Assembly: GCA_964387845.1 (NCBI GenBank)
Contig: CAYLXA010000003.1
Location: 64,001-128,000, forward strand
Direction: 5' to 3'
Length of the DNA: 64,000 nucleotides
Origin: an uncultured bacterium
GTDB lineage: Bacteria > Omnitrophota > Omnitrophia > Omnitrophales > Abzuiibacteriaceae
Positions 5,112 through 39,138 of the stretch are shown one piece after another; the first letter of the stretch is position 1, and each line of letters begins with the position of its first letter. Made by a program: the position numbers and the translations under genes. The notes below the pieces were generated by a model, which worked only from the letters and a program-made list of their open reading frames with translations, did no database searches and had not been told where the DNA came from.

Positions 5112-5265
5112 TGGACGCGTATTATATCAGTATCTGGTATCTCGTATCTAGTATCTAGTCCACCGCACCTCCTCACCCTATCCCTCTCCCCCTCTAAGGG
5201 GGAGAGGGTAAAGGAGAGGGGGTTTGTAAAACGAGATACTAGATACCAGATACTAAATACGGAAG
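5110..5265. repeat. complex palindrome: GTATCT hexamer runs flanking a CCCTCTCCCCC-TCTAA-GGGGGAGAGGG hairpin (repeat family 2)
   Basis: gtatctggtatctcgtatctagtatctag ... agatactagataccagatactaaatac inverted arms around a GC-rich hairpin; it sits directly after the transketolase stop. Confidence 0.6.
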
Positions 5266-10731: not shown

Positions 10732-13700
10732 TTACGCCGCTTTTCCAAGTACGGCGCGGCTAAAGAGCGTATGCATGAGTGAGCTGATAAATTCCGAGCT
10801 CGGATCGATCACGTCGCCCAACGAACGGAAATTGAACGAATCATTATGAGCGATTAGAAGCTGCGCAGCCTCAACGGCTCCCGGTCGGCCCAAAACTTTT
10901 GGAATATCACGCCGCGTGAGTTTTGAGAATAAATCGTGCTCGCCAATGGCCACAATCCGAGTCGTATCGCCTTTTGCATTGAGTTCATGTTTTAAGCGGT
11001 CGATTAAAATATTGTACGCTTGATCCGCCGAAAGTTCGCGGCCGACACTCAAACGCTCGCGCGTATAAAGCTGCAAGCGCGATCTTTGCCCGCTTTGCTT
11101 GCCAAAAATGTCGGCGTTTGGAAATAACTCTTCAACAGCCCTTTCGGCAACAAATGTGTTATCAAATTCGGAAGCGACAACCGAAAATTCGATTTTTGAA
11201 CCGGGATTTGCACTCATATCCGCCAAAATCGCTTCGCGCAATTCCGAACGGTTCTTCAATTCCTCAAACGAGATTACAATATTCCCCTTCACGTTTGACG
11301 GAATGCTTGCTTGATTCGCTTCACGCCTCAATTCAGACCGGGATTCTTGAGTTTCACCAAAAACCGCCTTAAGTCGATCCAAATATTGTGTCCGGTAAGC
11401 GCCCTCCGGAAAGTCTTCCAACTCGTCGGGATGGCTGCGGGCGGCGTCTGCTTCCTGTTCGACCTCATCGCCAACCCGTTCATCCTCTAAATATTCTTTG
11501 ATCACCTTCGTGGCCGCTTCAAGCTGTGCTTGGGTAATTCCCAATCGTTTAGGTGCTTCCAAATAAATTGCGATCGGTGTTTCATATATTGTGAAAAGCG
11601 TGGTGGCGGTTATCCGGCTTGAAAAATGATTCGCCGGATTATTTTCTTCACCAATCCAATAACGGACACCTGCCTCGATCAAAGGCAGTGTCAAGCCGAG
11701 CAATATTCGGCTTGGGCCTTCATGCAAGCCGGCAGCGTGATTTAAAACTGCGTGTTCAAGATGAAAAGAACTGTTGTCCAAACGGCTTTCAAAATGATCT
11801 TTAAATTCATTCCGGATATGCTCGATCAATGCCTCATCGCTTGTGCGCAATTCAGAGCGGGATTCGTCCTTTCGTACAAGAGCGCTCTTCCAGCCTCTTG
11901 ATTTTTGGCCGTCAGCGCCAACCGCCATCAGCATGTTGCCAAGTTCGTACGTTTGTAAATTGGTCCTGCCAAATACAGCATTTGTTAAAATTTTTACTTG
12001 CACACTTTTATCTTCGATTTCTGAAATTACTTTTAAGATTGGATTAGCATTGGTTAAAGCATCTTTAATGATCCACCTCGCTAAATATTTTGGAAACTTT
12101 AAGAAAAATTCTTCTTGTTCCAGAAAAGTCAAATCAGAAAATTTTTCATCCAAAATTCTGATCAATTCATCCGTTGTTTTGACCTCGCCAAATCTTGGCC
12201 AAGCCGGGAAGTTTTCCTGAATAAATTCTTGTATTTTTAAAACTCTTTGTGCATCGTTAGAAAATTTTTGTCCTTTTGTTGCTTCTGAGATTAACTGATT
12301 TGTCAGAAGGCGTGGATTTTCTATTTGATATAAATTCGAAATTTGAATTCTTTCATCTTTGGATAATTCCGATATTTTCTGCCGAAGACGGCGTTCTAAA
12401 TCCATATCTTTTTCAGGATCAATAAAGGGCAATTCGTAGAATGAGGCGTCTGCTAAATCAGGATGATGACGGGTTAAATAAGTCAGTAAAATATCTTGGA
12501 TGCTTCTGTTTTCCAAAGGTACGTTGCCATCGCCAAATTCCCGCACTAAGAGTTCTTTTTTATTTGAATCACCAGATATTAATAATCTATTCGAGGCATC
12601 AATAAAAACTTCCGGAATAATTCCGGGGAATGCGAGAACAATCTCTCGTCCTTGCCGGAAACTATTCGGCTGAAATTTTTCCTGTGCCCAATCCGGAATA
12701 TCAGTTCTTCCCCAAAGTCCGCCTGCTTCACCCATAAAATCCCGTTTTAATTCTCTTTCTAAAGACTCAAATGAAACACCAGCGCGCAAAAGCCAGCTTA
12801 ATTTGGTCCGCGCTTTCGAGAAAGTCATGTGATAAGGAATATTAATGGCGCCTGATTGCGAAACATTTGAAACAACAGGGATTTTCTTCCTTTTCAAACT
12901 TTGAATAGTAGCCCTGATATATTCGATCTCGGGGTTCTTTGAAAAATCGCCCTGGATAACAAGTCCTGCCCGAACGCCGGCTTGCTCTGCGTGCCGCTCG
13001 ATTCGATTGCCGGCTTGAAAGAGCACCAGCGCAGGCGTTGTTTCATCTATAAGCAAATGCTCAACATAACCAAATTCTTCATTTTTATGAAACTTTGGTT
13101 GTTTTTCTAGATTGGCCAATTTGCTGCTTACTGTTTGTAAGAAATCCATATCGAAACTGATATTTCCCTTGGAATCAACGGCGCCGATTGCTTTTCCATA
13201 ACTAGCAAAAAGACTCCCTTTTGAAGACGAGTCCGTTCTGATCTTCGAAATAAGACTTCCGAGATAGATTTGACTGTCAATGACAACATAGACCAAATTT
13301 GGAATATCTGTACGTTTTGCAACTTCTTCAGCTGCTTTCAAATTTAATATCTTTTCCTTTTCATTAACCGTGGAAGATCCTGTTAAAACAATTCGTGTCG
13401 GTAATGATCCATCAAATTCAAGCGAAAGAACCAGGCCTGTTTCTGCCAAGGTGTCGGTTCCGTGCGTGAGGATAATTCCACCCATTTCTCTTTGAGAAAC
13501 CTTGATCTCTTCGGCTAATGTCGTCTTCCTCGAGATTTCATCTTTGATATGATCAATTATTTTTTCCCATTCTTTCGGGCCAATATTCGTACTATCCGGA
13601 TTTTTATCGAAAACACTTTTGTAAAAAACAGTATTCTTTAAATGCGTTAATAAAACTCTTACCGCATCAACAGTCTTCCGCGCAAATTCGCCGATCATAT

Positions 13701-16700
13701 CAATCGTTCCGCCGGCATTTAAGATTGAAACGCCGGACAATTCTTTCTGAAGTTCTGCAATACTTTGCCCGCTGCGCAATTCGGATCTCACGTTTTCTTC
13801 AACCGGCTCTTCGGCATTCGGCTCATCGAGCTGTTTCAAGACGCGGTTTGTGGTAGCAATCGAATCTTCAAAAACGCCCAGCTCTTCCTTCGCTTTTTTC
13901 AATTCTAATAATTCCCTTGCCTGATCTTCAGGAAGTTCGACAATCCGGTCTTTGATTTCCAAAATCTTTTCAAGTCTGTCCGGACTAACGCCCAGCGCTT
14001 TCCTTAAAAATGCGGAATCTTTTAAATAATCAAAGAGCTTTTCGACCGCTTTGGCCATATCAAAAGGAGGAAGGATTTTGATGTATTGATCAATGTCGGG
14101 TGTTTTGTTTTCCCATGCATCTTTCAAGATCGTCACATTCTGGACTATTTTTTTCTTCGTTCCCTTTCCTCCCTTCACCGGAGCATCCACAATCTTGGGT
14201 GCCAATTCGATGCCGGTTAAACGAGCTATTTCCGGCATCCTGGATTCTTTGTTATAAAGCTCTTTTCTAACCCGGTAAGGCAGCCGCATAACCAGATCTG
14301 CATGAATACGAGCTCTTAATAGTGCTTTATACTCAGGGCTTCCGAATTCAATCGGTTTTTCGGGTTCAGGCTCTTGCGTGACAGAGGAATTTTCGAATGA
14401 ATCGACTAATGGGGTTTTTCCTATGATCGCCCGGGGTATCTCCAAACGCCTATTCGTTACCGCTGCCTGGCGAGCGTTTTTAGGTAAAAATTTATCGGCG
14501 AAATGCGGCGGATACGGATCCGCATTAAGTTCTAGAACCGTTTCGCGCCTAATCCCATAAATTAAATCTGAAGTCACATTCAATATTCTCGCCAACTTGC
14601 CCACTAATCTAGTAACTTCGGTGAATTTGACTTGTTTACTCCCGGAAAGCACTGCGTGAACATGCCCATAGGTTTCTTGTATTTGATTAAAAAGCTCGCT
14701 GGTAGTGATATGAGTAATGCCTCTTGCTTCAACAATGATTCTAATTCTGTCCCAATATGTCAAACTTGGATCAAACAAAGATTCGATAATGGCTGGCGTA
14801 AGAGCATAAATCGTCCATTGATCAACCGGAGATGCTCTTTCAATTTCCGAGACAAATGGTGGTTGCTGTTCTGGTTGGGGCGCTTCGGAAGCAGTTTCTG
14901 GAGTACTATCAATGTTTTTTAGCATTTCCGACAATCTAAGCGGCAACATTTCTTCTGCAGTTTCTTCTATCGTACCCGTCAGGGGTTGTTCTTCTGTTTC
15001 TGAGGGTTTAGCTTCAGTCAAAACTTCTTGTTTTACCAACTCAAGTTCTTGCTCGGTAGTCAAACCCAATCGTATGGAAAACTGTTCAAAGAGCATGATT
15101 TCTGGCCCTAAGATCCTTCTGATTTCTTTACCCTCTTCGCTTTCAGGAGTGTGGAGCAATTGTGCAAACTCCAAAGTATCTACTAACACTTCCCGGCTGG
15201 CAATACGCGGCCCCCCAAATGCGGGGTTGGTCGGCGGTACAAACAATAAACCTCGGTCAATCATATGCTGCAATGCTTCACCCATACGGGCTCCGCCGAT
15301 CGTGGTACCGAGCCGCGGATGCCAAACGACGTCCTGCGATTGGCCTTCCGATTTCGTATAAATTTCTTCCCAAAGAATCAATGCAATCAAGAGAGGCGCC
15401 ATTATCCTGCCTTTGTTCGGCCCGCTTTTGTATTTGAAAAGAACGTCGGGATCCTTCAGTAAAGTATCGGGAAGCAGATATTCTTTCACTGAAAATTTCA
15501 AATATTCTTTCAATGCGGCTTGATCCACGGAAAGATTTTCAAACGGTTGGTCTGGATTTCTGTTTAAGATTGCTTCTTCAATTTTTTTGCGAACCTCCGC
15601 ACCCATTTCATGATCAACTTCGAGCTGATTTTTGCTGTTAAACAATGATTCAAAATCCAACCCCACATGATTCGTGTATTCAGACATAGCTTCTACTTGC
15701 CATGGCTCTAGCTTTTCTGAAAGCCATTCGTGCACTTGCCCTACTCGAATGGTAACGTCCCGGTATTTTTCATCAGAATAAATTTGGTCAACTAATTTGC
15801 TAATTTCTTGAGGGTCTTCTTCTTTGATTGTCTTGAAAAATAAGTTTTCAAGATCGGCATCTCCCGTCAAATGATGAAGCAGCATATACCGAAGAATTGT
15901 TTTTTGCGTATTGCCTGCAAACCGCATTCCTCTCACAGTATCTGAATCCCTCATCTTAGTAATCGCTTTCATGGAGGAGCGCCGGATATTACCATGCATG
16001 CGCTCGACTGCCTGGCGATTAAGTCCGAAAATCAAATAAAGATCGATGATCATAAGCTGGGTTTCAACTGGAAGAGCTCCGCTTTGCTCGAAGCTTCTCT
16101 CAACAGCTTTATCAATCAATCCAATTTGACCTTCAATCAACAAATGTGTACGCCGGCTCGAATCCATCATCGATTTCAAAAGCTTCAATCGGTGGCCTTC
16201 GGCTAACGCTAAATCACGAAATTCGATCTGAAGCGTTGTGCTGCGATTCATTTCTATCTGGCGTGAAAAAACTTTGTCCAGTTTTTCAAACGCTTTTTCC
16301 AAGTCTATCTTTGCCTGGCCGATCAACTCTTCCGCAAGCTCCGGTTCGACTTGATCCACCAAGTGATCGGCTTGGTTTAGTTTTGCTTTTGCCTGGCCTA
16401 AATAATATTTAAACCATTGCTTATAAACTTGGGTTGAAATGTCTTCATAGATAGAACGTAAACGCCAATAAGCTTCTCCCCATTTGCTGGATGTTTGGCT
16501 CTCTTTAAATGAATCATCGTCCAAGAATGTTTTTACGGTTACGGCAACCTTCATCATGGTTTCGTAAAATAAATTAATTCTTGCTTGTTGAATGGAAATA
16601 TCCGATGCGCCGGATAGTGACTTGAAGTCTTTGTGCAAACGCCCGTAAACAGGAGATGTTCTGCTTTCAAAAAATATAGACTCTTTATTTTTAATATCCA

Positions 16701-19700
16701 AAAGAGAAAGCAAAACATCCAACTTTTTTAAGACGGTGTTGAGATGTCTGTTTTGAAGAATGGGCGGGATTCTGGCCGTTAAAGCATGGGCGCCTTCCAA
16801 CCATGAATAAAACGCATTCCGCTCATCAGAAGTTCCCATTAAATCGATAAATTCATCTAATTCCTTTTTTAACTTTACCAAGCTATCAAAGTGGCGAACC
16901 AGGTCGGAATTCTTCAAATCCGAAAGAAATGCATCTAGAAAAGCAGATGATTGAGACGCTATTTTCAACTGCTCTTCAAGTTTCGCCCGGCTTTCGGCAG
17001 TATTTTCGGAGGCCAATGCAGTCAAGGCAGTTTGGCGTAAAGCAGAAATGGATTCTACCTCGATAAACTTTTTGGCCAACTCGTCAATTTTCTGGATTCT
17101 CTGAATAATTTTTTCACTGCGGGTTTTCCGAACAAAAGAAACGGTTTCATTTTCATTTGATTTAACAATCAAATTTAAAATTAACGGCAGGGCTTCCTTT
17201 CTGAAGAATTTGCCCACGATTTTCCGGATCTCATCCAGTTTTTCTGACCGTCCTTTTTCCGGATTATTGGCAAGTTGATTAATGCTCAAAATTCCTTCGT
17301 CAACTTCAAGAAGCCACGAAAATACAGTTTCTATTTCACTTGCGGTGCCTAGATCAGAAATAAATTTTTCAAACCGGCTTTGGATTTCTCTCAGTTTGTG
17401 ATAAGCATCCCTGTTCTCACTTTCGGTAAGACCGTCAAATATTTTTTTCAGAATTTCAAAAGATTTTCTTGCTTCCGATCCAATATTTTTAAGATCTTCA
17501 AACCCTGCAAACGCCGTTTCGATGTCGAATTCCCCGTCACTTGAAGCAGGAATTAATTTGGATAAAACAAATGAGTCTAGATCGGAAAACCATGCGTCTG
17601 AAAAAAATGCTGCATATTGGGGCGCTGCGGCCGCATAAGTAGTTTTGCTGCGTGTGATTTGAGACAGTAATAAATTCCCGCGGCTATTCGCTGATTTCCA
17701 GCTGTTCATATTCATGCTTTCAAGCGAACGCAATTCTGATTTCTTGCTTTCAGCCGCATTCAACGTTTCGGCAATGAACGTTTTCATTACGCGATAGACA
17801 TATTCGGTTTGCTCTTGGGTAGGTTCGCTATTAAGAAAACGATCATAGAATTTGGCGGGATCCGAACCGCGCGGGTAAGCCTGTGAATAAGACAAAAGCC
17901 AGGCGCCAATAATAGATTGTCTAAACGTTGGAAGAGGAAGTTTTTTTAATTGTACGCCGCGGAGGCCGATGTTGACGAAAATAGCCGGCACATTTGCATC
18001 AAATTCTTTCCAACGGCGAAGGCGATGAATCGGCGCAAACCGGTCAAGCTCGCCCTTCCAAGGAATATAATCAATCTTCAAATCCTGCCCGTCGACCGTA
18101 ATTTTTTTCAAATCTTTGAGCAATTCCATAGCTTTAGAAGTGGCAATAATGCGGATCGGAGCGCGCGTTTCGCGAGGGCGTCTTTCCATAAACGTGATAT
18201 GCCAATCCATCATAAACGGAATATCGGGAAATTTTTGATGCAGGACCTGCATGAATTTTTCTCCGATTGGCGCCGGAATAGATTCAAAATTAGGCTGTGA
18301 ATCCGGTTTAATCTCGGCTATCAATTCTTCCGAAAATGCAGCCAACATTTTTTTGAATAACTTGTCCCGCTCTCCATGAAATTCGAGACGTTTTTGAAAA
18401 TCTGCGGCGCCTGCCGACATTTTTCGTTTCGTGCTCAAGCGCCGCTTTTTTCTTTCAGAAGGCCAATCTTTTTCTGCGTCATTTGTGATACGCTTTTGAA
18501 CAATATGCAGCAAGCGACTATTGATTTCATTACCGATTAAACCTTCCCGATCGGAAGCTTTGCTGAAATGAAAGTCGATCAAATTTAAACTGCTCTGGTC
18601 ATCACTTGTTTCAATTGCACGATCAATATCTTCTATCACTTTTTCCAATGTTTCAACAAACCACCGTTCTTTATCTTTGGAATATCGCTTTGACGCGGCC
18701 CCGTGCTCAAAAATTCTTCTCCCTTCTCTTCTATAAGCTTCGAGCATCCGCATAACACCCCGGTAAATCAAGTTGGTCTCGCCGACCGGCGTAAAAGACG
18801 ATCTCCACCTGCCGATTGCAGCATACCCGCCAAATTCTTGTTTCAAATCACGAATCATTGCTGCCGTGCGCTCCAAAGGATAATCACGATCAGTCAAGAT
18901 AAGCGGTGCTGTTCCTTCGGAGGATTTGACCGATTCCAGCAATTGAATTGCAGAACCAATGCTTTCCGGGAACAAATCTTCCGGAGCAAGCAGGCCCAGC
19001 TCAAACATGATTTGATTAAAAATGGTGCGCTGAGGGCCTCTCAGGCCTTTTATCCATGGATCTTTTTCGTAAATGGGCCGGATGCTTTTTGCGGTGATAT
19101 TGCCGTCTTCATCGCGATATTGATTGAATATATCGTTTTCGATTAAATATTCGATCGTGTTGTTTAAATAATCATACTGACGTAGCGTATCGGTCCATAA
19201 CAATAGAAGAAAAACAAGTTCGGGAGCCGGTTTTTGAAAGGGCATGAGCTGCTCGATTAATTCGTCGGATTCAAGAACTTTTCGGTAATAATCGACTAAA
19301 TTTTCAAATTTGGGATCTTTTATTTTATATTCTCCGCGATCAAACTTGCGAATAACTCTCCTAAGCACTATTCGAACGTCGTGCTTGAGCAGGGCTTCAT
19401 ACGCATACAACACACGTGATATTTTGTTGTCATAATCCCACGACGGATTTTTAGCAAAATCACTCTCGATCGCGATAAGGGTCCTAGCAATCAAACTTGC
19501 TGCATACATATTAGACCCCGGCAGCGGGTTGCCATACATGAGATCGGTTACATTTGGATGGACAATGTTTCCTGCGCGATCTGTCTCATCATTGGAAACA
19601 ACTTCATTGGGGAACACCTGATCCATAATAGCTTCACGGCTTCGAGTCCTCCGGTATTCTTCCCGTGCCCATTCTAAACGTTTTTTAAGTTGCCACCCTT

Positions 19701-22700
19701 TCGACCCTATTCCCAAAACAGACAACAACATCGCAATTGCATAATCCCGATAACCGACGTTTCCGACCATTTCAAACCGCAGCCTTGGATTGATTGCACG
19801 ATTCAGCCGGCGTACTACTTTTCGAAGAGAATGTTCATTTGCGTATTGAAACGCCGGAATTTTAAGTGCGATCGTGCTTGGAAGGCCCGCCTTCTCTTTA
19901 ATAGCACGCTCGTAATGATTTTCTTGCTCGTTTTCCGCTAATCCTGATAAAGCATGAAATATTTTCCTTTCGGCAGAATCCTCAGACTCCAAATAAGCAT
20001 GCCAAGCACGAGATTCAAATCGCCCCCACAAGTTTCCAAGTCCATGAAATTGGCTTTGAAATGCAAAAACCTGGCTTGCGCTCGCCATTTTATTTAGATG
20101 ATAACTGGCTTCGACAAGTTGACGATAAATATCGGGCAGGCCTTTTGAAGGCGTCATTTTGTACCGTTCTAGAGTTTCAAATGCGGCGTTCTTATGATAA
20201 TCAAAATAGAATTCGTGAATGCTTATGATTAACTCTCTGGTTTTTTCTTTAAAAACATCAATGGCGTGCGATTTCCCAAGCCCCATTGCGAGATCATAAA
20301 ACGATTGGAAGTACCGCGATAACCCCTCTGAGACTGCAAACCGGAGTCTCGCGTCGGTCTTGGATTTTTCGAGCAACGTATTTGTTATATCGCGAACAGG
20401 TTCAAAGAACACTTCCAACTTTGATTCGACGTTACTCTTTTTATTTCTTTTTGTACTGCCCTTTTTGATGTTGGCTGTCGCCAAACTAATTAAAAATTCT
20501 TGTGCGGTCTTTTGAGAAAAAGAATTGATGATGTGTTCCCACAAAAATATTGGTACTTTGATTTTAGATTTTGCACTCTGCACTAAATCTAAAAACATCC
20601 TTTCGGTCATTCTTTTATGATTGAAATTTTTTACGGGCAATACACGCACGCCGGGAATCGACTGAATTAAGAAATAGCTTTCTCTTTGGTCCTTATCTCC
20701 GCTTGTTTCTAACTTGCGGCTCGTAATGAGTTTGACTCTCGCAATAATTTTTAAGTCTGTTTGTTCTCCTCCGCGTGCAATCAAGAAACCATCTTCACGG
20801 CTTGGATTTAGTTTTATATCAAATTTTAAATCGTTTTGATTCTTTTCGCCGATGATCTGTTGGATTTTGTCCAAATCTTTCTGCCGATGCCATGCGGATC
20901 TGATTCCGACAAGAGAACCGCCCACCGATTCAACTCGCACTCTTGATATTTGTTTAGGGACAGATTCAACACGAATATGCATTGATTCGGTATTGCCATC
21001 CTCGTCAAAAACAACTGTAAATGTGCGACCGTGGCCAACTGAAACTAACTGCCGACCCACAAATCTTTTGGTACCAATCCGCTTCGCTTGAGAGATCAAT
21101 GCATCATCCGATCTGAGTTCAGACTTTTTTGTGGCCTGTCTTATTTCAAAATACTGCTGATAAAGTTCCTGAAAACTCGGCGTTTCCTGGATTTCAAGTT
21201 CGATTTCTCTAGCCATGTCCACTGCAGTGTCATTCAGAATATTTTCGTATGCACCAGCATCATAAGCTTTCTGTGAATCCTTACCGATTTCGTCCAGCCA
21301 TTTCCTCTCTGCCGGAATCCAGTCTTTATAATCATAAAAAATACTTTCGACATCCTCATAGGCCGTGAAGCGGATTAATTGTTTAAGAATAGCTAAAACC
21401 GCAGGGCTTACCGCAACGCTAATTGGAACATTGGCGTATTTACCTTTCATGTAGATTAAAAACAGCATGAACCGCCGCCAGCCAGCCATTTCGCCGCAGA
21501 TACTGACTTCCAACCCTGCCGCGCTCGCATGCTCAATGATTGTTTCGATCTTTTCAAGAAATGTGGAAAGCAATTCTGTGTACAATCTTCCGCCATATTC
21601 ACGGTCCCGGCCGAATGTTTGTTGCAATAAATCATTGGTGCCGATAGAAATAAAATCGACGTATTTCTTCTGTGCGATCACCGGAAGATTTTCAATGGCT
21701 TTGTTGGTTTCGATCATAATTCCGAACGGAATTTTGATCCGGAAGCGATTAAGATCGTGACGAAATTTTTCTAACTCCTGATCAAAGATAGTCCGGACAA
21801 ATATTACGTCATCCTCAGTTTGAACCATCGGTACAAATACTTTGACCGCAGATTCTCTTCCGGTTTCTCCTTCGGCGTGAAAATGCTCTGCAGCCATAAT
21901 GCTCGCGCGAATTGCCGCTCGAATTTGAGCTCTCAAGATCGGTTCGCCTTCCGTAGGATCCCTGTAAAGATCGAACCCGATTTTTGTATTCGTTTCTGAA
22001 ATGGCTGAAACAGGCTTGTCCAGCTGACGGTCTAACGTTCTTACCGCAAATGCGCCACGTAAGATAATCCTGCCCTGAGATAATATTTGAGTAAGATCGT
22101 CTTCATATTCTTTTATATTTGCTTCCCAGGATTCGTGGCGGTAGAAATGCGTAGGGAAATTGACTTCGGTTCGATAGAGCCGCACACCATCCGTATCTGC
22201 GGAAAGCTCTTGAATATGTTCAAGCGCATCCGCACTTCCGCTAACTTCCATCAACAGTGAAGCAACGCTGTCTTTCTTTGCAAACACAGGTTCTAGTGCG
22301 AGGGTTTTTGCCAATTGCAAATACGCTTCTTCCTTGACGATTTTCTGTTCATATTCGGCAGCATCTTTTTGTGAAGGATTGGCATGCAGCATTCCGTTTT
22401 CCCCGTCCGCATAAATGATTTGCCCTGACTTGATATCTGCAAACTTACCTAGTTTGGCCTTGAGCGCGGTAAGAACTAAGATCCCGTAATTAGCGCCGAC
22501 AATAACCCAATGTTCGGTGGGAGATCCAAACTCGGCTACAACCGCACCCAAATTTGGGTAAGCTTTTTTTAGACTTAAGAGAGTCGGCGCATTCATCGCT
22601 CCTGCCAAATACGGCTGTTCTTTTGAGACTTTTAAAATAACCACCAAATGATCAACTTTATCCGTCGTAAATTGCTGATCCGACACCAATTGCCGCGCCA

Positions 22701-25700
22701 TTTTTTCGTTTAGAATCAAAACTGCGTCTTTTAAAAGAACTAAAATATTTAGCAGCGTTTTCTCCTGAAGATCGGATGTGTCTTCAGAACTCATCTTGGT
22801 GCCGATATCCAAAATCAACTTTTGATAAGCATATTGGAGCGCAACATCAGGATACACATTTTTTGTATTGATTAACCAGCTGGTTTCTTCTTGAAATCGA
22901 TCAAGAAGCTCTTGAAATGAATACTTATCCGGCATGTTGTCGACAGGCGCTTGATCAACTAATTGGTCAGCCGCTGATTGAAATGCGCTTGCTATTTGAT
23001 CGTTGTATTCTTTGATTTTCTCTTGATAGAGTTCCTCGGACATTCCTTCCATTTTAAAAGACTCGCCATAGCTCAAAAAACTCATCATCCGGTAGAGCGT
23101 GGAAAGGATTTCCCTATTTCGAGCCTTGATCTGTTTTTCTTCATCCGTGCCCTCGGTTCCCTTGAGAGATTCGATGGCATTATGGATATCTTTAACAATT
23201 CTAGGAATTGGCTGGCCGGCTTTTTCAAGCTGTGTATAAGCATTGGGGTGCGCATACAACTTAAACGCATCGAAATATGAGATTTTTTTGTCCTTCAAAG
23301 ATTCCATCACTAATTTTATTGAATCGGTGTTATATTTAAAAAATTGCCATGTGATTTCTAATGCTTTTGCATCACGCAGACGCCCTTTTTGCTTTAGATC
23401 CCGAATTCTAATTTGAAAATCGAAATTAAAAATATCTAGAATCGCTTTAAAATGTTGCACATCACGTTCGGCAGCTTCAGGGCTAAGAATGGCAGGCTGT
23501 TTAAATTTGCTGCTAAATTTTTCCAAACTCTCTCCTAGCGCTCTGCTCGACCACAAATAGTAAATCTGAAAACCAACGCTATTCACTTTTGATTTAATTT
23601 CTTCTTCAAGAAGATGATCCGCTCTTTTCCCTTCGCTTTCTATTTTTTCCAGAACAGAATCTTTCAATTCGTCTAAAACTTGCAGTAAATTTTTGTTCGA
23701 TTGGTCTTCTTCCAAAATCATCCTGTCTATCTTTTCTGAAAATTTTACCTTTTCGATTCTTATCTTTTCTTGAACATCTGGTTCTTCATCCAAATTCGAT
23801 CTCAACGAATAAGCAGCTGTAAAAAAGTCGTCTGCCTGGAAAAGCATCGTGGTGCCTCGAAATACACGCCGGGCCTGATTTTTATTGCCCTGCATCAGAA
23901 CGGTTCGAAGTTCTGATCTTTTTTCCGATTCGCCTTCGGCATCACTTGTTTTGCTTTTGGATTTTTTCTCTTCGATCATTTCTTCAATGAGATCCAGCAG
24001 ATCTGTTAGTTGAGGGGGCAAAACTCCTTCGATTGCGTCCATGCTCAGCCCTGTATTCGCAATCACTCTTGCGATTATTTCGAGAGCGCTGTTTCCTGTA
24101 GAAACCGGATTTGCATTTATAATTGCCGCTATTTCCTCGTCATTTACTGATTCTTCTTTCGGGTCAAAATAAGAAGCGATTCCGGATTGCGCAGCAGGTT
24201 TTTCGGATTTGTTTTCTGCTGCTTGAGGTTGGGTTTGCGGCTCTGCCGGCTGTGCTGATTTGGCTTTTTCAATGACGAGTTGAAAAAAAGCGTCTCTCTG
24301 GTTTTGCTTTATCGATTTGAATTGATCATTTATAAACTTAGCGAAGGTCGATCCTGCTCTTAAGGGAAATTTATTCACGCTCGGATTCCCTTGTTTATAT
24401 TCGCTTGCCAATGCGCCACTCTTGTTAGCGTCTGTGATAATTGTCCGCTCAATTTCTGTTAGGTTGCCTTCCTTCCCCTCGGCAAGTTTCACAACGCCGG
24501 AAAAAAATGCTTCCACGTTTGCCTGCTGCGTCATATCTGCCGGAACTCCCGCCGCCCAATCGATCAATTTTTGGATTTGCGAATTGACAGCCCGCAATTC
24601 AGAACGATCGTTCTTCTCAGATTGTTGAGAAGGTTGTATAGAAACTGCATACGAGGCCAATTTCGAATCATCAAAATATGCCCTATCAATAAACTTTTCA
24701 AAAGTGGCTTGCCAACCGTCAGGGTTGTAGTAATACTCGGGCAACGATTTTCCTGATTTTGCTTGCACTTCGGATGCAAACCTGAGCAAAGCTTGTTGGA
24801 TAGGAACAAGAAACCGGTTATCAAAATTCTCCGCCGCTGTCCCCGGATTATTTTTGTTGATCAACGCACGCGTATATCCCAATTGCAGCGTCATTAGTTT
24901 CAAAATGTATCTTGATTTTTTCCAGTTCTTATCATTTGCGGCATCACGAAATCTCGATGAATCATAATGAAGGCGCGTTAATGTTGCCGCAAGTGATTCC
25001 GGATATTGATCCCTGGAGACATAGCGGACTTTAAGCCAATCAGATGCAACATCATCTAAAAATACCGAAACAACTCTGTGGGGAGTTTGTTCAATAACAA
25101 CCGACTCTGGATCCTTGAAACCAACCACCCCATTCTCATAAGCAAGATGGCCGACTTCGTGATACACATGATAATCGCTTACCCATTCAAATAACCGTGC
25201 CCTGTCTTCCTTATTTCCAATCTCACCGTGGTGGATAATTTGATGCTGGAGCATTGCCATTCTGAGTGAAATTCGGAGTCTGCGATAAGTTTCGTCATAA
25301 ATTAACGAAAATCCTGTATTGTCAGCCATAGATTCCGAATCTTTCATTTCAGCCGAAAAATTGATAGAGGGTGTCTCTAAAAATTTCTTCAACTCTGCCG
25401 GTAACTTTTCATAACTCTCAGAGGTTCGGCTTATCATCAAAAACGAATCCAAAATCTCTTCCATACTTAAATTGAGCTTCTTGAGTTCGCGATAAATCAT
25501 GATTAGCATAGAAAAAATATTTTGGCTTAATTTGTCAGGAAATTTACTTGTTGAAGATGGGATATAAAGGAATGATGATTGACCGCCTCGATAGGCCGAA
25601 ATAATAACATCAATTGGCCTTGCAAAAAGCCATCTTGAAAAGTAAATAAGCATCACTTGTGTAAGTTTTTTGATTTGAGACAGGTTGGGAAATTCTGGTT

Positions 25701-27243
25701 GTAAACGCAATTCCGATCTGTGTGAAATTGGATCTGCAGAATTAAAATATTCCTGCGGATTAAAATCCGAATTAAAAACTTGAAGCGGATTTGAGATGGC
25801 GGAAGATTTTAGAAACTCTTCGAACTTGGGTTTTAGTTTCTCAAAAGTTGGTGTTTCACCGTTCATGCGTTCGTAATAGCGGTCGTAATCCGTTTCCGGA
25901 GAAACTTGCGGCGAAATCAAAACAAACGGAATGTTTTCCTTTCGGAATTTTTCGGTTAGGTCTTCGGCATGAAAACCGCCGGTGACGAGGATAATGCCGG
26001 AGCCCGGCGGTAAAGGGTAAGCGTTAGGCGTTAAGTCTGACTTATCGCTTAACGCGTAACGCTTAACGCTATTTAAGAATGCTTCATCGCGTCTTTTGCT
26101 GGTGGTATAAAACTGTTCAGCAACATTGAGTTTTTTCGGATCTAGTTTTCCTTTGAGAAATTTTGTAATTTCTTTTTTGTGCTGTTGGTAAAATAGAAAG
26201 TCTTCCGGAGTTGCCTGCAGCGAAACGAGCGCTTTAACGGATTTTAAATATTCGCCTTCTTCATGAAGCCCTTCCTCACCTTTTCCGGAAAACAAACGCT
26301 CACGGACACGGTCTTTGAAAAGACTAATTTCACGAAACAAATTTACAGCACCGATTTCGCGGCTGATTCTTTCAAATTCTTTCTTCTCATCTATTTTTTC
26401 GCCGGCTTTCACACCCGTTAAACTGCGCTCCAATAGAACAAGCGATATTAATTTCTCAATCTCATACAAATCCGAGCGCTTGACGCCTTCGTTGCGCCCA
26501 ATATTCGCTAAATGAGAGATCAGCGAAATTAATTCGCCGCGCTGTTCGTATAAGCCCGTTTTTGTTTCGAATTCGAGCAAGCGCTTGTTGTACGTTTTCT
26601 CTTTCGCTTCCTGATTTTCTTTAAAAAGAAAATGGACGGCGGGCAAAAGTTCTTTTTGCACTTCAAGTGCTTTTAAAAATTCCTTCCGGTTTGAATCATA
26701 AAGTGCCGCATCTTCGGCCCCGATTAACTCATAGGACTTGGGGTTTAAAACGGCTTCTGCTTCAATGCCGGTTAAAATAACCTGCTCAAGCCAAAATCGG
26801 GTGGCGAGTTCTTTTACTTTTTGGTTAGGATAATTACGAAATCTGAAAAGATCTGCAGTGCCGGATGCGCCCTCGGCTAAAATCGTGCGGACGCCGAATT
26901 TTTCCGATATAAGCCTTGCGATCTTCTGAATATTCTGCTGAGCGCCCAGGTTTGCGTGAGCATCTTGGATGTAAAAAACTATAGGGGCAAGGGTCATGGG
27001 TCCAGGGTCAAGGTTCGTTCCTTGACCCTTGCTACTTGCTACTTGACCCTTCGGAATAAAGACTTCCGAGACACGCCCCAGAGCTTCTGGAATTAAATTT
27101 CCAAAATCCTGTTGATTAGATATGGGTCTTTGGTAATCAAGAGGCGCTGCATGAGAGATGTCTGCCCAGATAAACGCCACGATTAGGACAAACGCAATAA
27201 TGCGGAGAGCCGGAGAATATTTTTTGTTTTGGGGGAAAAACAA
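10732..27243 (-). CDS. giant (5503 aa) membrane-anchored multidomain protein of unknown function
   Basis: Uninterrupted 16.5-kb ORF. TTG start preceded by SD gaggtg and an in-frame TGA just upstream. N-terminal hydrophobic anchor. Recognisable modules: PEP-utilizing phosphohistidine (GSPTEHWVIVGANYG) and TIM barrel (RTLD...ISIGTNDLLQQTFGRDREYGG...VSICGEMAG), asparaginase signature GGIILTHGTDTL, HEVGH, and tentative Tiki/ChaN-like N- and C-terminal domains. Confidence 0.8.
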   Translation of the reverse strand: MFFPQNKKYSPALRIIAFVLIVAFIWADISHAAPLDYQRPISNQQDFGNLIPEALGRVSEVFIPKGQVASSKGQGTNLDPGPMTLAPIVFYIQDAHANLGAQQNIQKIARLISEKFGVRTILAEGASGTADLFRFRNYPNQKVKELATRFWLEQVILTGIEAEAVLNPKSYELIGAEDAALYDSNRKEFLKALEVQKELLPAVHFLFKENQEAKEKTYNKRLLEFETKTGLYEQRGELISLISHLANIGRNEGVKRSDLYEIEKLISLVLLERSLTGVKAGEKIDEKKEFERISREIGAVNLFREISLFKDRVRERLFSGKGEEGLHEEGEYLKSVKALVSLQATPEDFLFYQQHKKEITKFLKGKLDPKKLNVAEQFYTTSKRRDEAFLNSVKRYALSDKSDLTPNAYPLPPGSGIILVTGGFHAEDLTEKFRKENIPFVLISPQVSPETDYDRYYERMNGETPTFEKLKPKFEEFLKSSAISNPLQVFNSDFNPQEYFNSADPISHRSELRLQPEFPNLSQIKKLTQVMLIYFSRWLFARPIDVIISAYRGGQSSFLYIPSSTSKFPDKLSQNIFSMLIMIYRELKKLNLSMEEILDSFLMISRTSESYEKLPAELKKFLETPSINFSAEMKDSESMADNTGFSLIYDETYRRLRISLRMAMLQHQIIHHGEIGNKEDRARLFEWVSDYHVYHEVGHLAYENGVVGFKDPESVVIEQTPHRVVSVFLDDVASDWLKVRYVSRDQYPESLAATLTRLHYDSSRFRDAANDKNWKKSRYILKLMTLQLGYTRALINKNNPGTAAENFDNRFLVPIQQALLRFASEVQAKSGKSLPEYYYNPDGWQATFEKFIDRAYFDDSKLASYAVSIQPSQQSEKNDRSELRAVNSQIQKLIDWAAGVPADMTQQANVEAFFSGVVKLAEGKEGNLTEIERTIITDANKSGALASEYKQGNPSVNKFPLRAGSTFAKFINDQFKSIKQNQRDAFFQLVIEKAKSAQPAEPQTQPQAAENKSEKPAAQSGIASYFDPKEESVNDEEIAAIINANPVSTGNSALEIIARVIANTGLSMDAIEGVLPPQLTDLLDLIEEMIEEKKSKSKTSDAEGESEKRSELRTVLMQGNKNQARRVFRGTTMLFQADDFFTAAYSLRSNLDEEPDVQEKIRIEKVKFSEKIDRMILEEDQSNKNLLQVLDELKDSVLEKIESEGKRADHLLEEEIKSKVNSVGFQIYYLWSSRALGESLEKFSSKFKQPAILSPEAAERDVQHFKAILDIFNFDFQIRIRDLKQKGRLRDAKALEITWQFFKYNTDSIKLVMESLKDKKISYFDAFKLYAHPNAYTQLEKAGQPIPRIVKDIHNAIESLKGTEGTDEEKQIKARNREILSTLYRMMSFLSYGESFKMEGMSEELYQEKIKEYNDQIASAFQSAADQLVDQAPVDNMPDKYSFQELLDRFQEETSWLINTKNVYPDVALQYAYQKLILDIGTKMSSEDTSDLQEKTLLNILVLLKDAVLILNEKMARQLVSDQQFTTDKVDHLVVILKVSKEQPYLAGAMNAPTLLSLKKAYPNLGAVVAEFGSPTEHWVIVGANYGILVLTALKAKLGKFADIKSGQIIYADGENGMLHANPSQKDAAEYEQKIVKEEAYLQLAKTLALEPVFAKKDSVASLLMEVSGSADALEHIQELSADTDGVRLYRTEVNFPTHFYRHESWEANIKEYEDDLTQILSQGRIILRGAFAVRTLDRQLDKPVSAISETNTKIGFDLYRDPTEGEPILRAQIRAAIRASIMAAEHFHAEGETGRESAVKVFVPMVQTEDDVIFVRTIFDQELEKFRHDLNRFRIKIPFGIMIETNKAIENLPVIAQKKYVDFISIGTNDLLQQTFGRDREYGGRLYTELLSTFLEKIETIIEHASAAGLEVSICGEMAGWRRFMLFLIYMKGKYANVPISVAVSPAVLAILKQLIRFTAYEDVESIFYDYKDWIPAERKWLDEIGKDSQKAYDAGAYENILNDTAVDMAREIELEIQETPSFQELYQQYFEIRQATKKSELRSDDALISQAKRIGTKRFVGRQLVSVGHGRTFTVVFDEDGNTESMHIRVESVPKQISRVRVESVGGSLVGIRSAWHRQKDLDKIQQIIGEKNQNDLKFDIKLNPSREDGFLIARGGEQTDLKIIARVKLITSRKLETSGDKDQRESYFLIQSIPGVRVLPVKNFNHKRMTERMFLDLVQSAKSKIKVPIFLWEHIINSFSQKTAQEFLISLATANIKKGSTKRNKKSNVESKLEVFFEPVRDITNTLLEKSKTDARLRFAVSEGLSRYFQSFYDLAMGLGKSHAIDVFKEKTRELIISIHEFYFDYHKNAAFETLERYKMTPSKGLPDIYRQLVEASYHLNKMASASQVFAFQSQFHGLGNLWGRFESRAWHAYLESEDSAERKIFHALSGLAENEQENHYERAIKEKAGLPSTIALKIPAFQYANEHSLRKVVRRLNRAINPRLRFEMVGNVGYRDYAIAMLLSVLGIGSKGWQLKKRLEWAREEYRRTRSREAIMDQVFPNEVVSNDETDRAGNIVHPNVTDLMYGNPLPGSNMYAASLIARTLIAIESDFAKNPSWDYDNKISRVLYAYEALLKHDVRIVLRRVIRKFDRGEYKIKDPKFENLVDYYRKVLESDELIEQLMPFQKPAPELVFLLLLWTDTLRQYDYLNNTIEYLIENDIFNQYRDEDGNITAKSIRPIYEKDPWIKGLRGPQRTIFNQIMFELGLLAPEDLFPESIGSAIQLLESVKSSEGTAPLILTDRDYPLERTAAMIRDLKQEFGGYAAIGRWRSSFTPVGETNLIYRGVMRMLEAYRREGRRIFEHGAASKRYSKDKERWFVETLEKVIEDIDRAIETSDDQSSLNLIDFHFSKASDREGLIGNEINSRLLHIVQKRITNDAEKDWPSERKKRRLSTKRKMSAGAADFQKRLEFHGERDKLFKKMLAAFSEELIAEIKPDSQPNFESIPAPIGEKFMQVLHQKFPDIPFMMDWHITFMERRPRETRAPIRIIATSKAMELLKDLKKITVDGQDLKIDYIPWKGELDRFAPIHRLRRWKEFDANVPAIFVNIGLRGVQLKKLPLPTFRQSIIGAWLLSYSQAYPRGSDPAKFYDRFLNSEPTQEQTEYVYRVMKTFIAETLNAAESKKSELRSLESMNMNSWKSANSRGNLLLSQITRSKTTYAAAAPQYAAFFSDAWFSDLDSFVLSKLIPASSDGEFDIETAFAGFEDLKNIGSEARKSFEILKKIFDGLTESENRDAYHKLREIQSRFEKFISDLGTASEIETVFSWLLEVDEGILSINQLANNPEKGRSEKLDEIRKIVGKFFRKEALPLILNLIVKSNENETVSFVRKTRSEKIIQRIQKIDELAKKFIEVESISALRQTALTALASENTAESRAKLEEQLKIASQSSAFLDAFLSDLKNSDLVRHFDSLVKLKKELDEFIDLMGTSDERNAFYSWLEGAHALTARIPPILQNRHLNTVLKKLDVLLSLLDIKNKESIFFESRTSPVYGRLHKDFKSLSGASDISIQQARINLFYETMMKVAVTVKTFLDDDSFKESQTSSKWGEAYWRLRSIYEDISTQVYKQWFKYYLGQAKAKLNQADHLVDQVEPELAEELIGQAKIDLEKAFEKLDKVFSRQIEMNRSTTLQIEFRDLALAEGHRLKLLKSMMDSSRRTHLLIEGQIGLIDKAVERSFEQSGALPVETQLMIIDLYLIFGLNRQAVERMHGNIRRSSMKAITKMRDSDTVRGMRFAGNTQKTILRYMLLHHLTGDADLENLFFKTIKEEDPQEISKLVDQIYSDEKYRDVTIRVGQVHEWLSEKLEPWQVEAMSEYTNHVGLDFESLFNSKNQLEVDHEMGAEVRKKIEEAILNRNPDQPFENLSVDQAALKEYLKFSVKEYLLPDTLLKDPDVLFKYKSGPNKGRIMAPLLIALILWEEIYTKSEGQSQDVVWHPRLGTTIGGARMGEALQHMIDRGLLFVPPTNPAFGGPRIASREVLVDTLEFAQLLHTPESEEGKEIRRILGPEIMLFEQFSIRLGLTTEQELELVKQEVLTEAKPSETEEQPLTGTIEETAEEMLPLRLSEMLKNIDSTPETASEAPQPEQQPPFVSEIERASPVDQWTIYALTPAIIESLFDPSLTYWDRIRIIVEARGITHITTSELFNQIQETYGHVHAVLSGSKQVKFTEVTRLVGKLARILNVTSDLIYGIRRETVLELNADPYPPHFADKFLPKNARQAAVTNRRLEIPRAIIGKTPLVDSFENSSVTQEPEPEKPIEFGSPEYKALLRARIHADLVMRLPYRVRKELYNKESRMPEIARLTGIELAPKIVDAPVKGGKGTKKKIVQNVTILKDAWENKTPDIDQYIKILPPFDMAKAVEKLFDYLKDSAFLRKALGVSPDRLEKILEIKDRIVELPEDQARELLELKKAKEELGVFEDSIATTNRVLKQLDEPNAEEPVEENVRSELRSGQSIAELQKELSGVSILNAGGTIDMIGEFARKTVDAVRVLLTHLKNTVFYKSVFDKNPDSTNIGPKEWEKIIDHIKDEISRKTTLAEEIKVSQREMGGIILTHGTDTLAETGLVLSLEFDGSLPTRIVLTGSSTVNEKEKILNLKAAEEVAKRTDIPNLVYVVIDSQIYLGSLISKIRTDSSSKGSLFASYGKAIGAVDSKGNISFDMDFLQTVSSKLANLEKQPKFHKNEEFGYVEHLLIDETTPALVLFQAGNRIERHAEQAGVRAGLVIQGDFSKNPEIEYIRATIQSLKRKKIPVVSNVSQSGAINIPYHMTFSKARTKLSWLLRAGVSFESLERELKRDFMGEAGGLWGRTDIPDWAQEKFQPNSFRQGREIVLAFPGIIPEVFIDASNRLLISGDSNKKELLVREFGDGNVPLENRSIQDILLTYLTRHHPDLADASFYELPFIDPEKDMDLERRLRQKISELSKDERIQISNLYQIENPRLLTNQLISEATKGQKFSNDAQRVLKIQEFIQENFPAWPRFGEVKTTDELIRILDEKFSDLTFLEQEEFFLKFPKYLARWIIKDALTNANPILKVISEIEDKSVQVKILTNAVFGRTNLQTYELGNMLMAVGADGQKSRGWKSALVRKDESRSELRTSDEALIEHIRNEFKDHFESRLDNSSFHLEHAVLNHAAGLHEGPSRILLGLTLPLIEAGVRYWIGEENNPANHFSSRITATTLFTIYETPIAIYLEAPKRLGITQAQLEAATKVIKEYLEDERVGDEVEQEADAARSHPDELEDFPEGAYRTQYLDRLKAVFGETQESRSELRREANQASIPSNVKGNIVISFEELKNRSELREAILADMSANPGSKIEFSVVASEFDNTFVAERAVEELFPNADIFGKQSGQRSRLQLYTRERLSVGRELSADQAYNILIDRLKHELNAKGDTTRIVAIGEHDLFSKLTRRDIPKVLGRPGAVEAAQLLIAHNDSFNFRSLGDVIDPSSEFISSLMHTLFSRAVLGKAA

Positions 27244-39030: not shown

Positions 39031-39138
39031 GAAAATACTTTCTAGTGGTAACCCCGCGTCGCCAAAAAGCGGCTCATGGGGCGACTATCTCCCTAGATAA
39101 ATAGCAACTTGAGTCTTCATAGGTAGGAGATAGTCGTC

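What the first reader, a model, noticed from the sequence alone, without database searches (positions are those of the whole stretch)
11238..24602. Eight copies of a [K/R]-S-E-L-R pentapeptide spaced along the giant protein at module boundaries, a candidate processing or docking motif
SELR preceded by a basic residue occurs eight times in one protein: NDRSELR (~nt 24590, aa ~881), EKRSELR (~23930, aa ~1103), KKSELR (~21115, aa ~2040), KKSELR (~17730, aa ~3168), VRSELR (~13780, aa ~4485), SRSELR (~11850, aa ~5129), SRSELR (~11330, aa ~5301), NRSELR (~11245, aa ~5330). The random expectation for SELR alone in 5.5 kaa is about 0.1. Codons differ between copies, so conservation is at the peptide level, not from DNA repeats. 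Copies flank recognisable modules: the asparaginase-like domain begins about 15 aa after the aa-4485 copy, and the PEP-utilizing module ends just before the aa-2040 copy. This is what one would expect of protease cleavage sites in a polyprotein (cleavage after the basic residue), or of short linear sorting or docking motifs.
Basis: seen in the sequence. Interest (0 to 1): 0.8.

Follow-up and report, generated by a model that had tools for sequence, protein, structure and literature searches.

The report
Junction motif punctuating Omnitrophota giant proteins
The repeated [K/R]SELR peptide is real (nine copies, not eight) and is the local form of a strictly conserved five-residue mark, R-[S/A]-E-[V/L/M]-R, that separates whole enzyme modules in a large, undescribed family of giant proteins of the bacterial phylum Omnitrophota; it is most likely a cutting site, and if so it gives the first concrete answer to whether and where these giant proteins are cleaved.

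Summary
Confirmed and extended. The 5503-aa ORF (10732-27243, minus strand) holds nine [KR]SELR copies, against 0.03 expected (P~1e-19), and none occurs elsewhere in the window. A full HMMER scan found more than 5000 relatives sharing only the N-terminal ~470-aa domain. They are almost all from Candidatus Omnitrophota, and many are 2-8 kaa long. Across 150 representatives there are 378 copies of R-[SA]-E-[VLMAIT]-R, up to about 17 per protein, with uninformative flanks.

The motif is kept at equivalent junctions at 25-35% identity. It brackets modules that have changed order between paralogues. It never falls inside a Pfam domain in the proteins I scanned. Some clades use GFG[AT], G[AS]SLG or AARLA instead.

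Best reading: processing sites of a secreted or anchored polyprotein, possibly cut by the TIKI-like domain. Cleavage itself is untested. One copy lies inside the C domain. Papers on Omnitrophota giant proteins state that cleavage points are unknown.

The parts
10732..27243 (-). Giant ORF, 5503 aa (TTG start as listed; the stop codon is included in the coordinates). It is a modular multi-enzyme protein of an Omnitrophota family.
27154..27210 (-). The only strongly hydrophobic segment (aa 12-30, ALRIIAFVLIVAFIWADIS), followed by SHA|AP. It is an N-terminal signal peptide or membrane anchor (inferred).
   Evidence: hydropathy scan; conserved h-region followed by [FW]S-AP in relatives
25801..27096 (-). 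Conserved N-terminal domain (about aa 50-481) with a TIKI/TraB/ChaN/Ere/RRSP-like fold. Invariant residues include D94, H96, E124, E177, R385 and G422-G-F-H425.
25705..25719 (-). Motif copy 1, RSELR (aa 509-513), at the junction after the N domain. It lies in a linker with AF2 pLDDT below 50.
24607..25704 (-). Module 2 (aa 514-879). It has no Pfam match and contains HEVGH at aa 695-699. A homologous module in P0009 is bracketed by the motif on both sides.
24592..24606 (-). Motif copy 2, RSELR (aa 880-884).
23905..23919 (-). Motif copy 3, RSELR (aa 1109-1113), at the start of the PEP-utilising module.
21343..22560 (-). Enzyme I / PEP synthase-like region (mobile His domain plus PEP-binding domain, about aa 1562-1967) inside module 4 (aa 1114-2039). 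It holds the protein's only Cys (C1916).
21112..21126 (-). Motif copy 4, KSELR (aa 2040-2044), at the end of module 4.
17728..17742 (-). Motif copy 5, KSELR (aa 3168-3172), at the end of module 5 (aa 2045-3167; no Pfam match).
13774..13788 (-). Motif copy 6, RSELR (aa 4486-4490), at the end of module 6 and 15 aa before the asparaginase-like domain.
12757..13731 (-). L-asparaginase-like domain (aa 4505-4829) with GGT and HGTDT signatures, inside module 7 (aa 4491-5128).
11845..11859 (-). Motif copy 7, RSELR (aa 5129-5133).
11326..11340 (-). Motif copy 8, RSELR (aa 5302-5306). This junction just before the C-terminal domain is present in relatives P0002, P0004, P0005, P0006, P0010 and P0012.
11236..11250 (-). 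Motif copy 9, RSELR (aa 5332-5336). It lies inside the C-terminal domain at the start of a helix, and close relatives do not have the motif there.
10735..11325 (-). Conserved C-terminal domain (aa 5307-5503), a Rossmann/HAD-like alpha/beta fold in the model of a minimal relative. It ends in ...GKAA; the family C-terminus is [AS]A.

Best explanation
[KR]SELR is the local version of R-[SA]-E-[VLMAIT]-R, the inter-module junction signal of a large Omnitrophota protein family.

Shown: every family member has an N-terminal hydrophobic signal or anchor, a ~470-aa TIKI-superfamily hydrolase-like domain, and a ~170-200-aa Rossmann-like C domain ending in [AS]A. The 'minimal' ~700-aa members have only these parts. 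The giant members carry complete enzymes inserted between them, each set off by the motif.

Inferred: the giant protein is a polyprotein. After export or anchoring through the N-terminal signal, the exposed flexible linkers carrying the motif are cut by a site-specific endopeptidase, releasing the enzyme modules as separate proteins. The most economical candidate for that protease is the family's own TIKI/RRSP-like N domain, acting in cis or in trans (for example from the minimal paralogue). The side of the motif on which the bond is broken is unknown.

The confidence given (0.55) is for the cleavage-site reading. That the motif is a functional junction signal I put at about 0.95, and that the N domain is the protease at about 0.35.
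For: Non-randomness: nine copies against 0.03 expected, none elsewhere in the window. About 1.2 copies per 1000 aa occur in family ORFs against about 0.03 per 1000 aa in other ORFs of the window and 78 related loci.

Family-wide and strict: 378 copies in 150 representatives, up to about 17 per protein. Position 1 is R 337 / K 11; position 2 is S 257 / A 80; position 3 is E 337 / D 3; position 4 is V, L, M, A, I or T; position 5 is R 337 / K 1. The flanks carry no more than 0.3 bit.

Conserved at equivalent junctions at 25-35% identity, with unconserved flanks.

Modules behave as units. The PEP-utilising module and the module that follows it in the window protein occur in the opposite order in P0003, P0004 and P0005, and each stays bracketed by the motif. 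Ends of BLAST matches between paralogues fall within 40 aa of a motif in 46% of cases, against 24% for random sites (maximum 39% in 500 trials).

The motif never lies inside a Pfam domain in the window protein, P0065, P0006 or P0009. The delimited units are whole multi-domain enzymes, for example biotin carboxylase plus carboxyltransferase, or SBD_N + NBD_C + PdxA.

Other clades use different short words in the same role: GFG[AT], G[AS]SLG and AARLA. In the GFG[AT] proteins P0015 and P0019 a copy also lies immediately before the C domain. This is the pattern expected of cleavage sites that track a recognition factor.

The first junction lies in a linker with pLDDT below 50.

Published work suspects that Omnitrophota giant proteins are cleaved but has no cleavage points (10.1101/2023.11.21.568195).
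Against: No experiment or dataset examined here shows cleavage.

AF2 does not dock the first motif into the N domain.

Copy 9 lies in a helix of the folded C domain. Eight of 84 full-length relatives have a motif copy within their last 14 residues, where cutting would release only a few residues. Both observations fit a binding motif at least as well as a cleavage site.

The N-domain catalytic residues are equally invariant in clades without any punctuation motif and in minimal forms without cargo. Proteins using G[AS]SLG have N domains close to those of proteins using R-S-E-x-R. So the N domain is not tied specifically to the motif.

Confidence: 0.55

Rival explanations
1. A non-cleaved short linear motif. 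The pentapeptide in each linker is a docking site for a partner, such as the family's own N or C domain, a chaperone, or an export or assembly factor. The giant protein stays intact as a membrane-tethered multi-enzyme scaffold.
For: The profile is very strict at both Arg and at Glu, and the flanks are uninformative. That is typical of binding motifs as well as of cleavage sites. Copies occur where cutting makes little sense: inside the C domain of the window protein and within the last 14 residues of 8 of 84 relatives. The catalytic residues of the N domain do not co-vary with presence of the motif.
Against: Delimited units correspond to complete stand-alone enzymes. Domains begin 8-20 aa after the motif, as at native N-termini. 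A docking role does not explain why every junction, and essentially only junctions, carries exactly one copy. No candidate partner was identified.
Confidence: 0.25
2. A cleavage site for a different, trans-acting Omnitrophota protease (for example a trypsin-like, metacaspase-like, S8 or C39 peptidase). On this reading the TIKI-like N domain has an unrelated hydrolase function. This is a sub-case of the cleavage reading, so its confidence is included within the 0.55 given above.
For: P0009 has the motif and a C-terminal end of the family type (...RVLQSA), but it lacks the N domain, so recognition in trans must be possible. N-domain clades only partly track motif type. S8 and C39 domains have been reported on other Omnitrophota giant proteins.
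Against: No such protease is encoded in the window or among conserved neighbours of the family genes. The one element common to all motif-bearing giants examined, apart from P0009, is the N domain with an intact catalytic set.
Confidence: 0.2
3. A nucleic-acid-level signal or evolutionary scar: a recombination joint left by module insertion, or an internal translation start (NTG at position 4), with no function as a peptide.
For: There is codon bias at the motif. In the window, Ser is always TCN and Leu is TTG in 7 of 9 copies. Across 218 sites in 33 genes, the position-1 Arg is CGY in 171 cases (expected 87), and the position-4 codons are enriched for NTG and GCG.
Against: Third positions vary. 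The position-5 Arg uses all six codons at background frequencies, and Glu uses GAA and GAG at background frequencies. Fewer than half of position-4 codons are possible start codons (97 of 218). The amino-acid pattern is held across proteins whose flanks are unalignable. The biases fit single-step codon neighbourhoods (S/A through TCN/GCN; L/V/M through NTG). There are no DNA repeats.
Confidence: 0.04
4. A chance or compositional artefact.
For: None beyond the general richness of the protein in E, L, R and S.
Against: P is about 1e-19. Shuffles gave at most 3 copies. The motif recurs family-wide.
Confidence: 0.001

Closest known systems
MARTX (multifunctional autoprocessing repeats-in-toxin) toxins
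   Same: A single giant secreted bacterial protein carries an array of unrelated enzyme or effector modules separated by short recognition sites, and MARTX toxins have a built-in protease that releases the modules. RRSP, one MARTX effector, is a structural relative of the N domain found here.
   Different: MARTX toxins use a C80 cysteine protease domain and have RTX repeats. The window protein has one Cys in 5503 aa, no Peptidase_C80 or RTX match, a different site, and a TIKI-like candidate protease at the N-terminus. Cleavage is not shown here.
Viral polyproteins (for example picornavirus 3C or flavivirus NS3 sites)
   Same: One ORF holds gene-sized modules separated by a short consensus site in flexible linkers. 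The site consensus is lineage-specific.
   Different: This is a cellular, chromosomal gene family with a conserved genomic neighbourhood. The modules are metabolic enzymes. The protease class is different and unproven.
TIKI / TraB / RRSP site-specific endopeptidases of the EreA/ChaN/TIKI superfamily
   Different: The first acidic residue is Asp rather than Glu. A helical insertion of about 250 aa is present. There is no Pfam match for the window sequence. The substrate and the activity are unknown.
Omnitrophota giant proteins ('Archaeovorins' and 'multi-enzyme metabolic cluster' proteins)
   Same: Same phylum. Multi-enzyme content includes PEP/pyruvate dikinase-type domains. N-terminal regions lack annotated domains, and post-translational cleavage is suspected.
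   Different: The published sets were selected at >=10 kaa or >=30 kaa and describe C39, S8 and SecA-like domains and many transmembrane helices. None of the passages I searched for in these papers mentions the junction motif, the shared N and C domains, or the minimal ~700-aa form. I did not test whether the published giant proteins carry the motif.
Kex2/furin-processed repeat precursors and multi-core RiPP precursors
   Same: A short basic recognition motif is reiterated between cargo units.
   Different: Those cargo units are peptides, not enzymes. The furin/kexin pattern R-x-[KR]-R is not met, because position 4 here is hydrophobic.

Membership tests
EreA/ChaN/TIKI/TraB/RRSP superfamily (N-terminal domain) | Core fold: a parallel beta-sheet flanked by helices | tested here: met
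EreA/ChaN/TIKI/TraB/RRSP superfamily (N-terminal domain) | 2His/2Glu (His-Glu pair) catalytic motif | tested here: inconclusive
   D94-x-H96, E124 and H425 are invariant or nearly so in 72 giants and in 26- and 27-sequence alignments. They sit at strand ends as in RRSP's E3900, H3902, E3930 and H4030. No residue-level superposition was available, and the first acid is Asp.
EreA/ChaN/TIKI/TraB/RRSP superfamily (N-terminal domain) | Match to a curated sequence model (PF04187, PF01963 and similar) | tested here: not met
   No Pfam or NCBIfam hit at E<=1 for the window N domain or for four minimal forms. One relative (P0158) has a precomputed PF04187 match.
EreA/ChaN/TIKI/TraB/RRSP superfamily (N-terminal domain) | Peptidase activity | not testable with these tools
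   Needs biochemistry.
Self-processing polyprotein | Several gene-sized functional modules in one ORF | tested here: met
   An Enzyme I-like module, an asparaginase-like module and at least five further modules are present. Relatives carry acetyl-CoA carboxylase, HPr, pseudouridine synthase, PdxA and PCMT, among others.
Self-processing polyprotein | Conserved short site at inter-module junctions | tested here: met
Self-processing polyprotein | Embedded protease | tested here: inconclusive
   A TIKI-like N domain with an intact catalytic set is present. An HExxH occurs in module 2, but that module is absent from most relatives.
Self-processing polyprotein | Demonstrated cleavage products | not testable with these tools
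   No proteomic data were accessible. The published de novo peptide mapping was too sparse.
MARTX toxin | C80 cysteine protease domain and RTX repeats | tested here: not met
   No such Pfam hits. There is a single Cys, located in the PEP-binding domain.
Furin/kexin-type dibasic site | R-x-[KR]-R | tested here: not met
   Position 4 is V, L, M, A, I or T, and the basic residues are spaced i and i+4.
PL7 alginate lyase conserved region R[STN]E[LV]R | The catalytic motif occurs together with Q[IV]H and YFKAG[VI]YNQ in one jelly-roll domain | tested here: not met
   No YFKAG. There is a single unrelated QIH at aa 3836. The motif copies lie in linkers.
Omnitrophota giant proteins (Archaeovorin / multi-enzyme class) | Encoded in an Omnitrophota genome | tested here: met
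   Nearly all of the 78 related loci are Candidatus Omnitrophota MAGs. The window's tkt, pepQ-like and mqnA-like neighbours are 52-69% identical to, and syntenic with, those loci. The window's own record name was not available.
Omnitrophota giant proteins (Archaeovorin / multi-enzyme class) | Length >=10 kaa (2026 catalogue) or >=30 kaa (2023 set) | tested here: not met
   5503 aa.

The most novel reading that the evidence does not exclude
Omnitrophota run a phylum-wide bacterial polyprotein system. Accessory enzymes are encoded as cysteine-free, signal-bearing giant precursors built on an ancestral 'TIKI-like protease + Rossmann-like C domain' protein. They are cut at R-[SA]-E-x-R (or, in other clades, at GFG[AT], G[AS]SLG or AARLA) by the TIKI-type domain. 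The motif therefore gives a rule for dividing Omnitrophota giant proteins of this family into their mature products.
Probability: 0.35. Interest if true: 0.9.

Novelty: new variant of a known kind. Interest (0 to 1): 0.8.

Why it matters
Omnitrophota giant proteins are a recognised puzzle. [quoted passage not shown]

A strict, family-wide junction motif gives concrete, testable cut sites and a rule for dividing these proteins into modules for structure and function prediction. The shared TIKI-like N domain gives a candidate protease. The shared N and C domains and the ~700-aa minimal form define a large unannotated family: more than 5000 cluster representatives and no Pfam or NCBIfam model. 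They also suggest how the giants arose, by insertion of cargo between two ancestral domains.

If cleavage is confirmed, this would be a cellular bacterial counterpart of viral polyproteins, using a protease class not known to play that role.

Tried and rejected
- The word-indexed homologue searches returned almost nothing: the protein itself, then 5 and 7 hits. Only the exhaustive HMMER scan revealed the family.
- Pfam and NCBIfam have no model for the N or C domains. A PDB profile search gave nothing, and Foldseek against the PDB gave nothing significant.
- Literature searches for RSELR, KSELR, RSEVR and similar strings returned only PL7 alginate-lyase papers and noise. The PL7 relation is rejected.
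- The furin/kexin pattern is rejected.
- Internal protein or DNA repeats are rejected.
- The internal start codon or DNA-signal idea was tested on 218 sites and rejected as a general explanation.
- AF2 of the N domain plus the first junction did not dock the motif.
- Comparing N-domain clades with motif type was only partly informative: the GFGA and AARLA users form their own clades, but the GASLG users mix with the R-S-E-x-R users.
- Conservation of the catalytic residues does not separate motif users from non-users.
- The window contains no tRNA gene and no Rfam family.
- Modules 2 and 8 have no PDB sequence relatives. My reading of module 8 as HPr-like rests only on LNHAAGLH and on homology to P0005; Pfam does not support it for the window or for P0005.

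Full report
**Observation.** The finding lies in one ORF, 10732..27243 on the minus strand, of 5503 aa. SELR occurs nine times, always preceded by K or R: seven RSELR and two KSELR. From the protein's composition, 0.24 SELR and 0.032 [KR]SELR are expected. Poisson P(>=9) is 5e-12 and 1e-19, and 5000 shuffles never gave more than three copies. No other frame of the 64-kb window contains SELR. Self-BLASTP shows no internal repeats. Codons vary, so the conservation is at the peptide level. There are mild biases, though: Ser is always TCN and Leu is TTG in 7 of 9 copies.

**What the protein is.** Pfam recognises only a PEP-utilising enzyme (mobile plus PEP-binding domains, Enzyme I / PEP synthase-like) and an L-asparaginase-like domain. 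Both keep their catalytic signatures. There is a single strongly hydrophobic segment, at aa 12-30, followed by SHA|AP. I take it to be a signal peptide or anchor. The protein contains one cysteine in 5503 residues, against 1.12% in the other ORFs of the window (P~7e-26). That cysteine is the active-site Cys of the PEP-binding domain.

**The family.** Word-indexed searches failed. An exhaustive HMMER scan with aa 1-1200 gave 5463 representatives at E<=1e-3. In nearly all of the 150 listed, the match is only to the first ~500 aa, and many of them are 2-8 kaa long. Most full-length members also share a C-terminal domain of about 170-200 aa, and they end in [AS]A (84 of 155 sequences). 'Minimal' members of about 700 aa consist of signal, N domain, a short linker and C domain. 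A scan of species-representative genomes returned 78 loci, nearly all from Candidatus Omnitrophota MAGs, with several paralogues per genome. The window's neighbours (split transketolase, PepQ-like, MqnA-like) are 52-69% identical to, and in the same order as, the genes beside the minimal form in those MAGs. So the window is from an Omnitrophota genome. Neither Pfam nor NCBIfam has a model for the N or C domain.

**The motif in the family.** Among 150 representatives there are 378 matches to [KR][SA]E[LVIMAF]R. Forty-three proteins have three or more, with up to about 17 per protein against 0.3-0.6 expected. I relaxed one position at a time in the motif-using proteins. The profile is:
- position 1: R 337 / K 11
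- position 2: S 257 / A 80
- position 3: E 337 / D 3
- position 4: V 122, L 113, M 40, A 36, I 26, T 17
- position 5: R 337 / K 1

The flanks carry no more than 0.3 bit, with small residues at -2, -1 and +1. In family ORFs the motif occurs about 1.2 times per 1000 aa. In other ORFs of the window plus the 78 loci it occurs about 0.03 times per 1000 aa, once misclassified family fragments are removed.

**Junction behaviour.** In P0002 (35% identity over modules 4-6) the motif sits at positions equivalent to all four junctions of the window protein. In P0003, P0004 and P0005 the homologue of module 5 precedes the homologue of module 4, and both are still bracketed by the motif. Module 2 recurs in P0009 with the motif on both sides. 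The junctions after the N domain and before the C domain carry the motif in all close relatives. The residues around the motif are not conserved at any of these junctions. Across 40 motif-using proteins, 46% of the ends of BLAST matches between paralogues lie within 40 aa of a motif, against 24% for random sites (maximum 39% in 500 trials). Matches start 0-20 aa after a motif. In the window protein, P0065, P0006 and P0009, no motif falls inside a Pfam domain. The delimited units are whole enzymes, for example biotin carboxylase plus carboxyltransferase, O-methyltransferase with its dimerisation domain, and SBD_N + NBD_C + PdxA.

Exceptions:
- Copy 9 of the window protein lies inside the C domain, at the start of a helix, where relatives have KSVLD, ADELF or SDELR.
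- Eight of 84 relatives have a copy in their last 14 residues, for example ...ARAEIRKSA.

**Other clades.** Some giant members lack the motif and show other over-represented short words in variable contexts: GFG[AT] (P0015, P0019), G[AS]SLG (P0035, P0053) and AARLA (P0142, P0091). In P0015 and P0019 a GFGA copy lies immediately before the C domain. The GFGA and AARLA users form their own N-domain clades. The GASLG users mix with the R-S-E-x-R users. One Cys-richer clade has no detectable punctuation.

**Interpretation.** Shown: [KR]SELR is a real, selected, family-wide delimiter of enzyme-sized modules. Inferred: the delimiter is a processing site, and the giant is a polyprotein. The arguments for this are the one-site-per-junction pattern, the exposed linkers, domains that start a native-like 8-20 aa after the site, the lineage-specific replacement of the site, and a hydrolase domain of an endopeptidase-containing superfamily in every member examined except P0009. 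The arguments against are listed above: the in-domain and C-terminal copies, the absence of a predicted docking, and catalytic conservation that does not depend on the motif. These keep a non-cleaved docking motif alive as an alternative.

My estimates are:
- about 0.95 that the motif is a functional junction signal
- about 0.55 that it is cleaved
- about 0.35 that the N domain is the protease

A DNA-level or internal-start explanation is unlikely. At 218 sites in 33 genes, the position-5 Arg and the Glu use codons at background frequencies, and fewer than half of the position-4 codons could serve as start codons. There is, however, an unexplained CGY preference at position 1.

**Relation to the literature.** Text searches for the motif strings found nothing relevant. 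Three papers on Omnitrophota giant proteins describe multi-enzyme giants, including pyruvate/PEP dikinase domains, and N-terminal regions without annotated domains. They speculate on cleavage by C39 or S8 domains. They state that cleavage points are unknown or do not mention cleavage, and in my term searches none mentions linker motifs or the shared N and C domains. I did not test whether the published proteins of more than 10 kaa carry the motif.

**Verdict.** The thing itself appears undescribed and makes an open question directly testable.

Noticed in passing
window 10732-27243 (-): There is near-total absence of cysteine: 1 Cys in 5503 aa (C1916, the active-site Cys of the PEP-binding domain), against 1.12% in the other ORFs of the window (P~7e-26). 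Relatives that use the motif have a median of 0.05% Cys, while a motif-free clade has 0.3-1%.
   Followed up: partly
window 25147-25161 (-), module aa 514-879: The only HExxH of the protein (HEVGH, aa 695-699) lies in module 2. That module has no Pfam or PDB match but has a 38%-identical homologue in P0009. It may be an unrecognised zinc peptidase carried as cargo.
   Followed up: partly
family C-termini; window 10735-10746: Full-length family members end in [AS]A-COOH (84 of 155; the window protein ends ...GKAA). Eight of the 84 carry a motif copy in their last 14 residues, for example ARAEIRKSA. The function is unknown.
   Followed up: partly
218 motif sites in 33 family genes of the window and loci L002-L079: Codon bias at the motif: the position-1 Arg is CGY in 171 of 218 sites (expected 87), Ser is AGY in only 11 of 182 (expected 62), and position 4 is enriched for TTG, GTG and GCG. 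The position-5 Arg and the Glu are unbiased. The CGY preference is unexplained.
   Followed up: partly
loci L002-L054 (for example L007 9959-12091): A ~700-aa 'minimal' form (signal + TIKI-like N domain + C domain) is present in most of the Omnitrophota MAGs sampled. It often lies divergently next to a giant paralogue and beside mqnA-like, pepQ-like and split tkt genes. Its N-C linker carries a QTLSE[LV]RN-like segment that resembles the junction motif.
   Followed up: partly
window 11644-11766 (-), aa ~5160-5200: Module 8 contains LNHAAGLHEGPS, which resembles the HPr phosphorylation-site motif (GLHARPA). The relative P0006 has a Pfam PTS-HPr match, but neither the window module nor P0005 reaches any threshold. 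Together with the Enzyme I-like module this hints at a PTS-like phosphorelay within the protein.
   Followed up: partly
window 3552-5111 (-): The ThyX (FAD-dependent thymidylate synthase) ORF is 519 aa, about twice the usual length, and matches the model in two stretches.
   Followed up: no
window 38752-39408 (-): A small pair of ORFs looks, by my reading of the translations only, like a RelE/ParE-type toxin and an AbrB/SpoVT-type antitoxin. It lies beside an isc-type cluster that I read as hscB, hscA, fdx and iscX (40370-43311).
   Followed up: no
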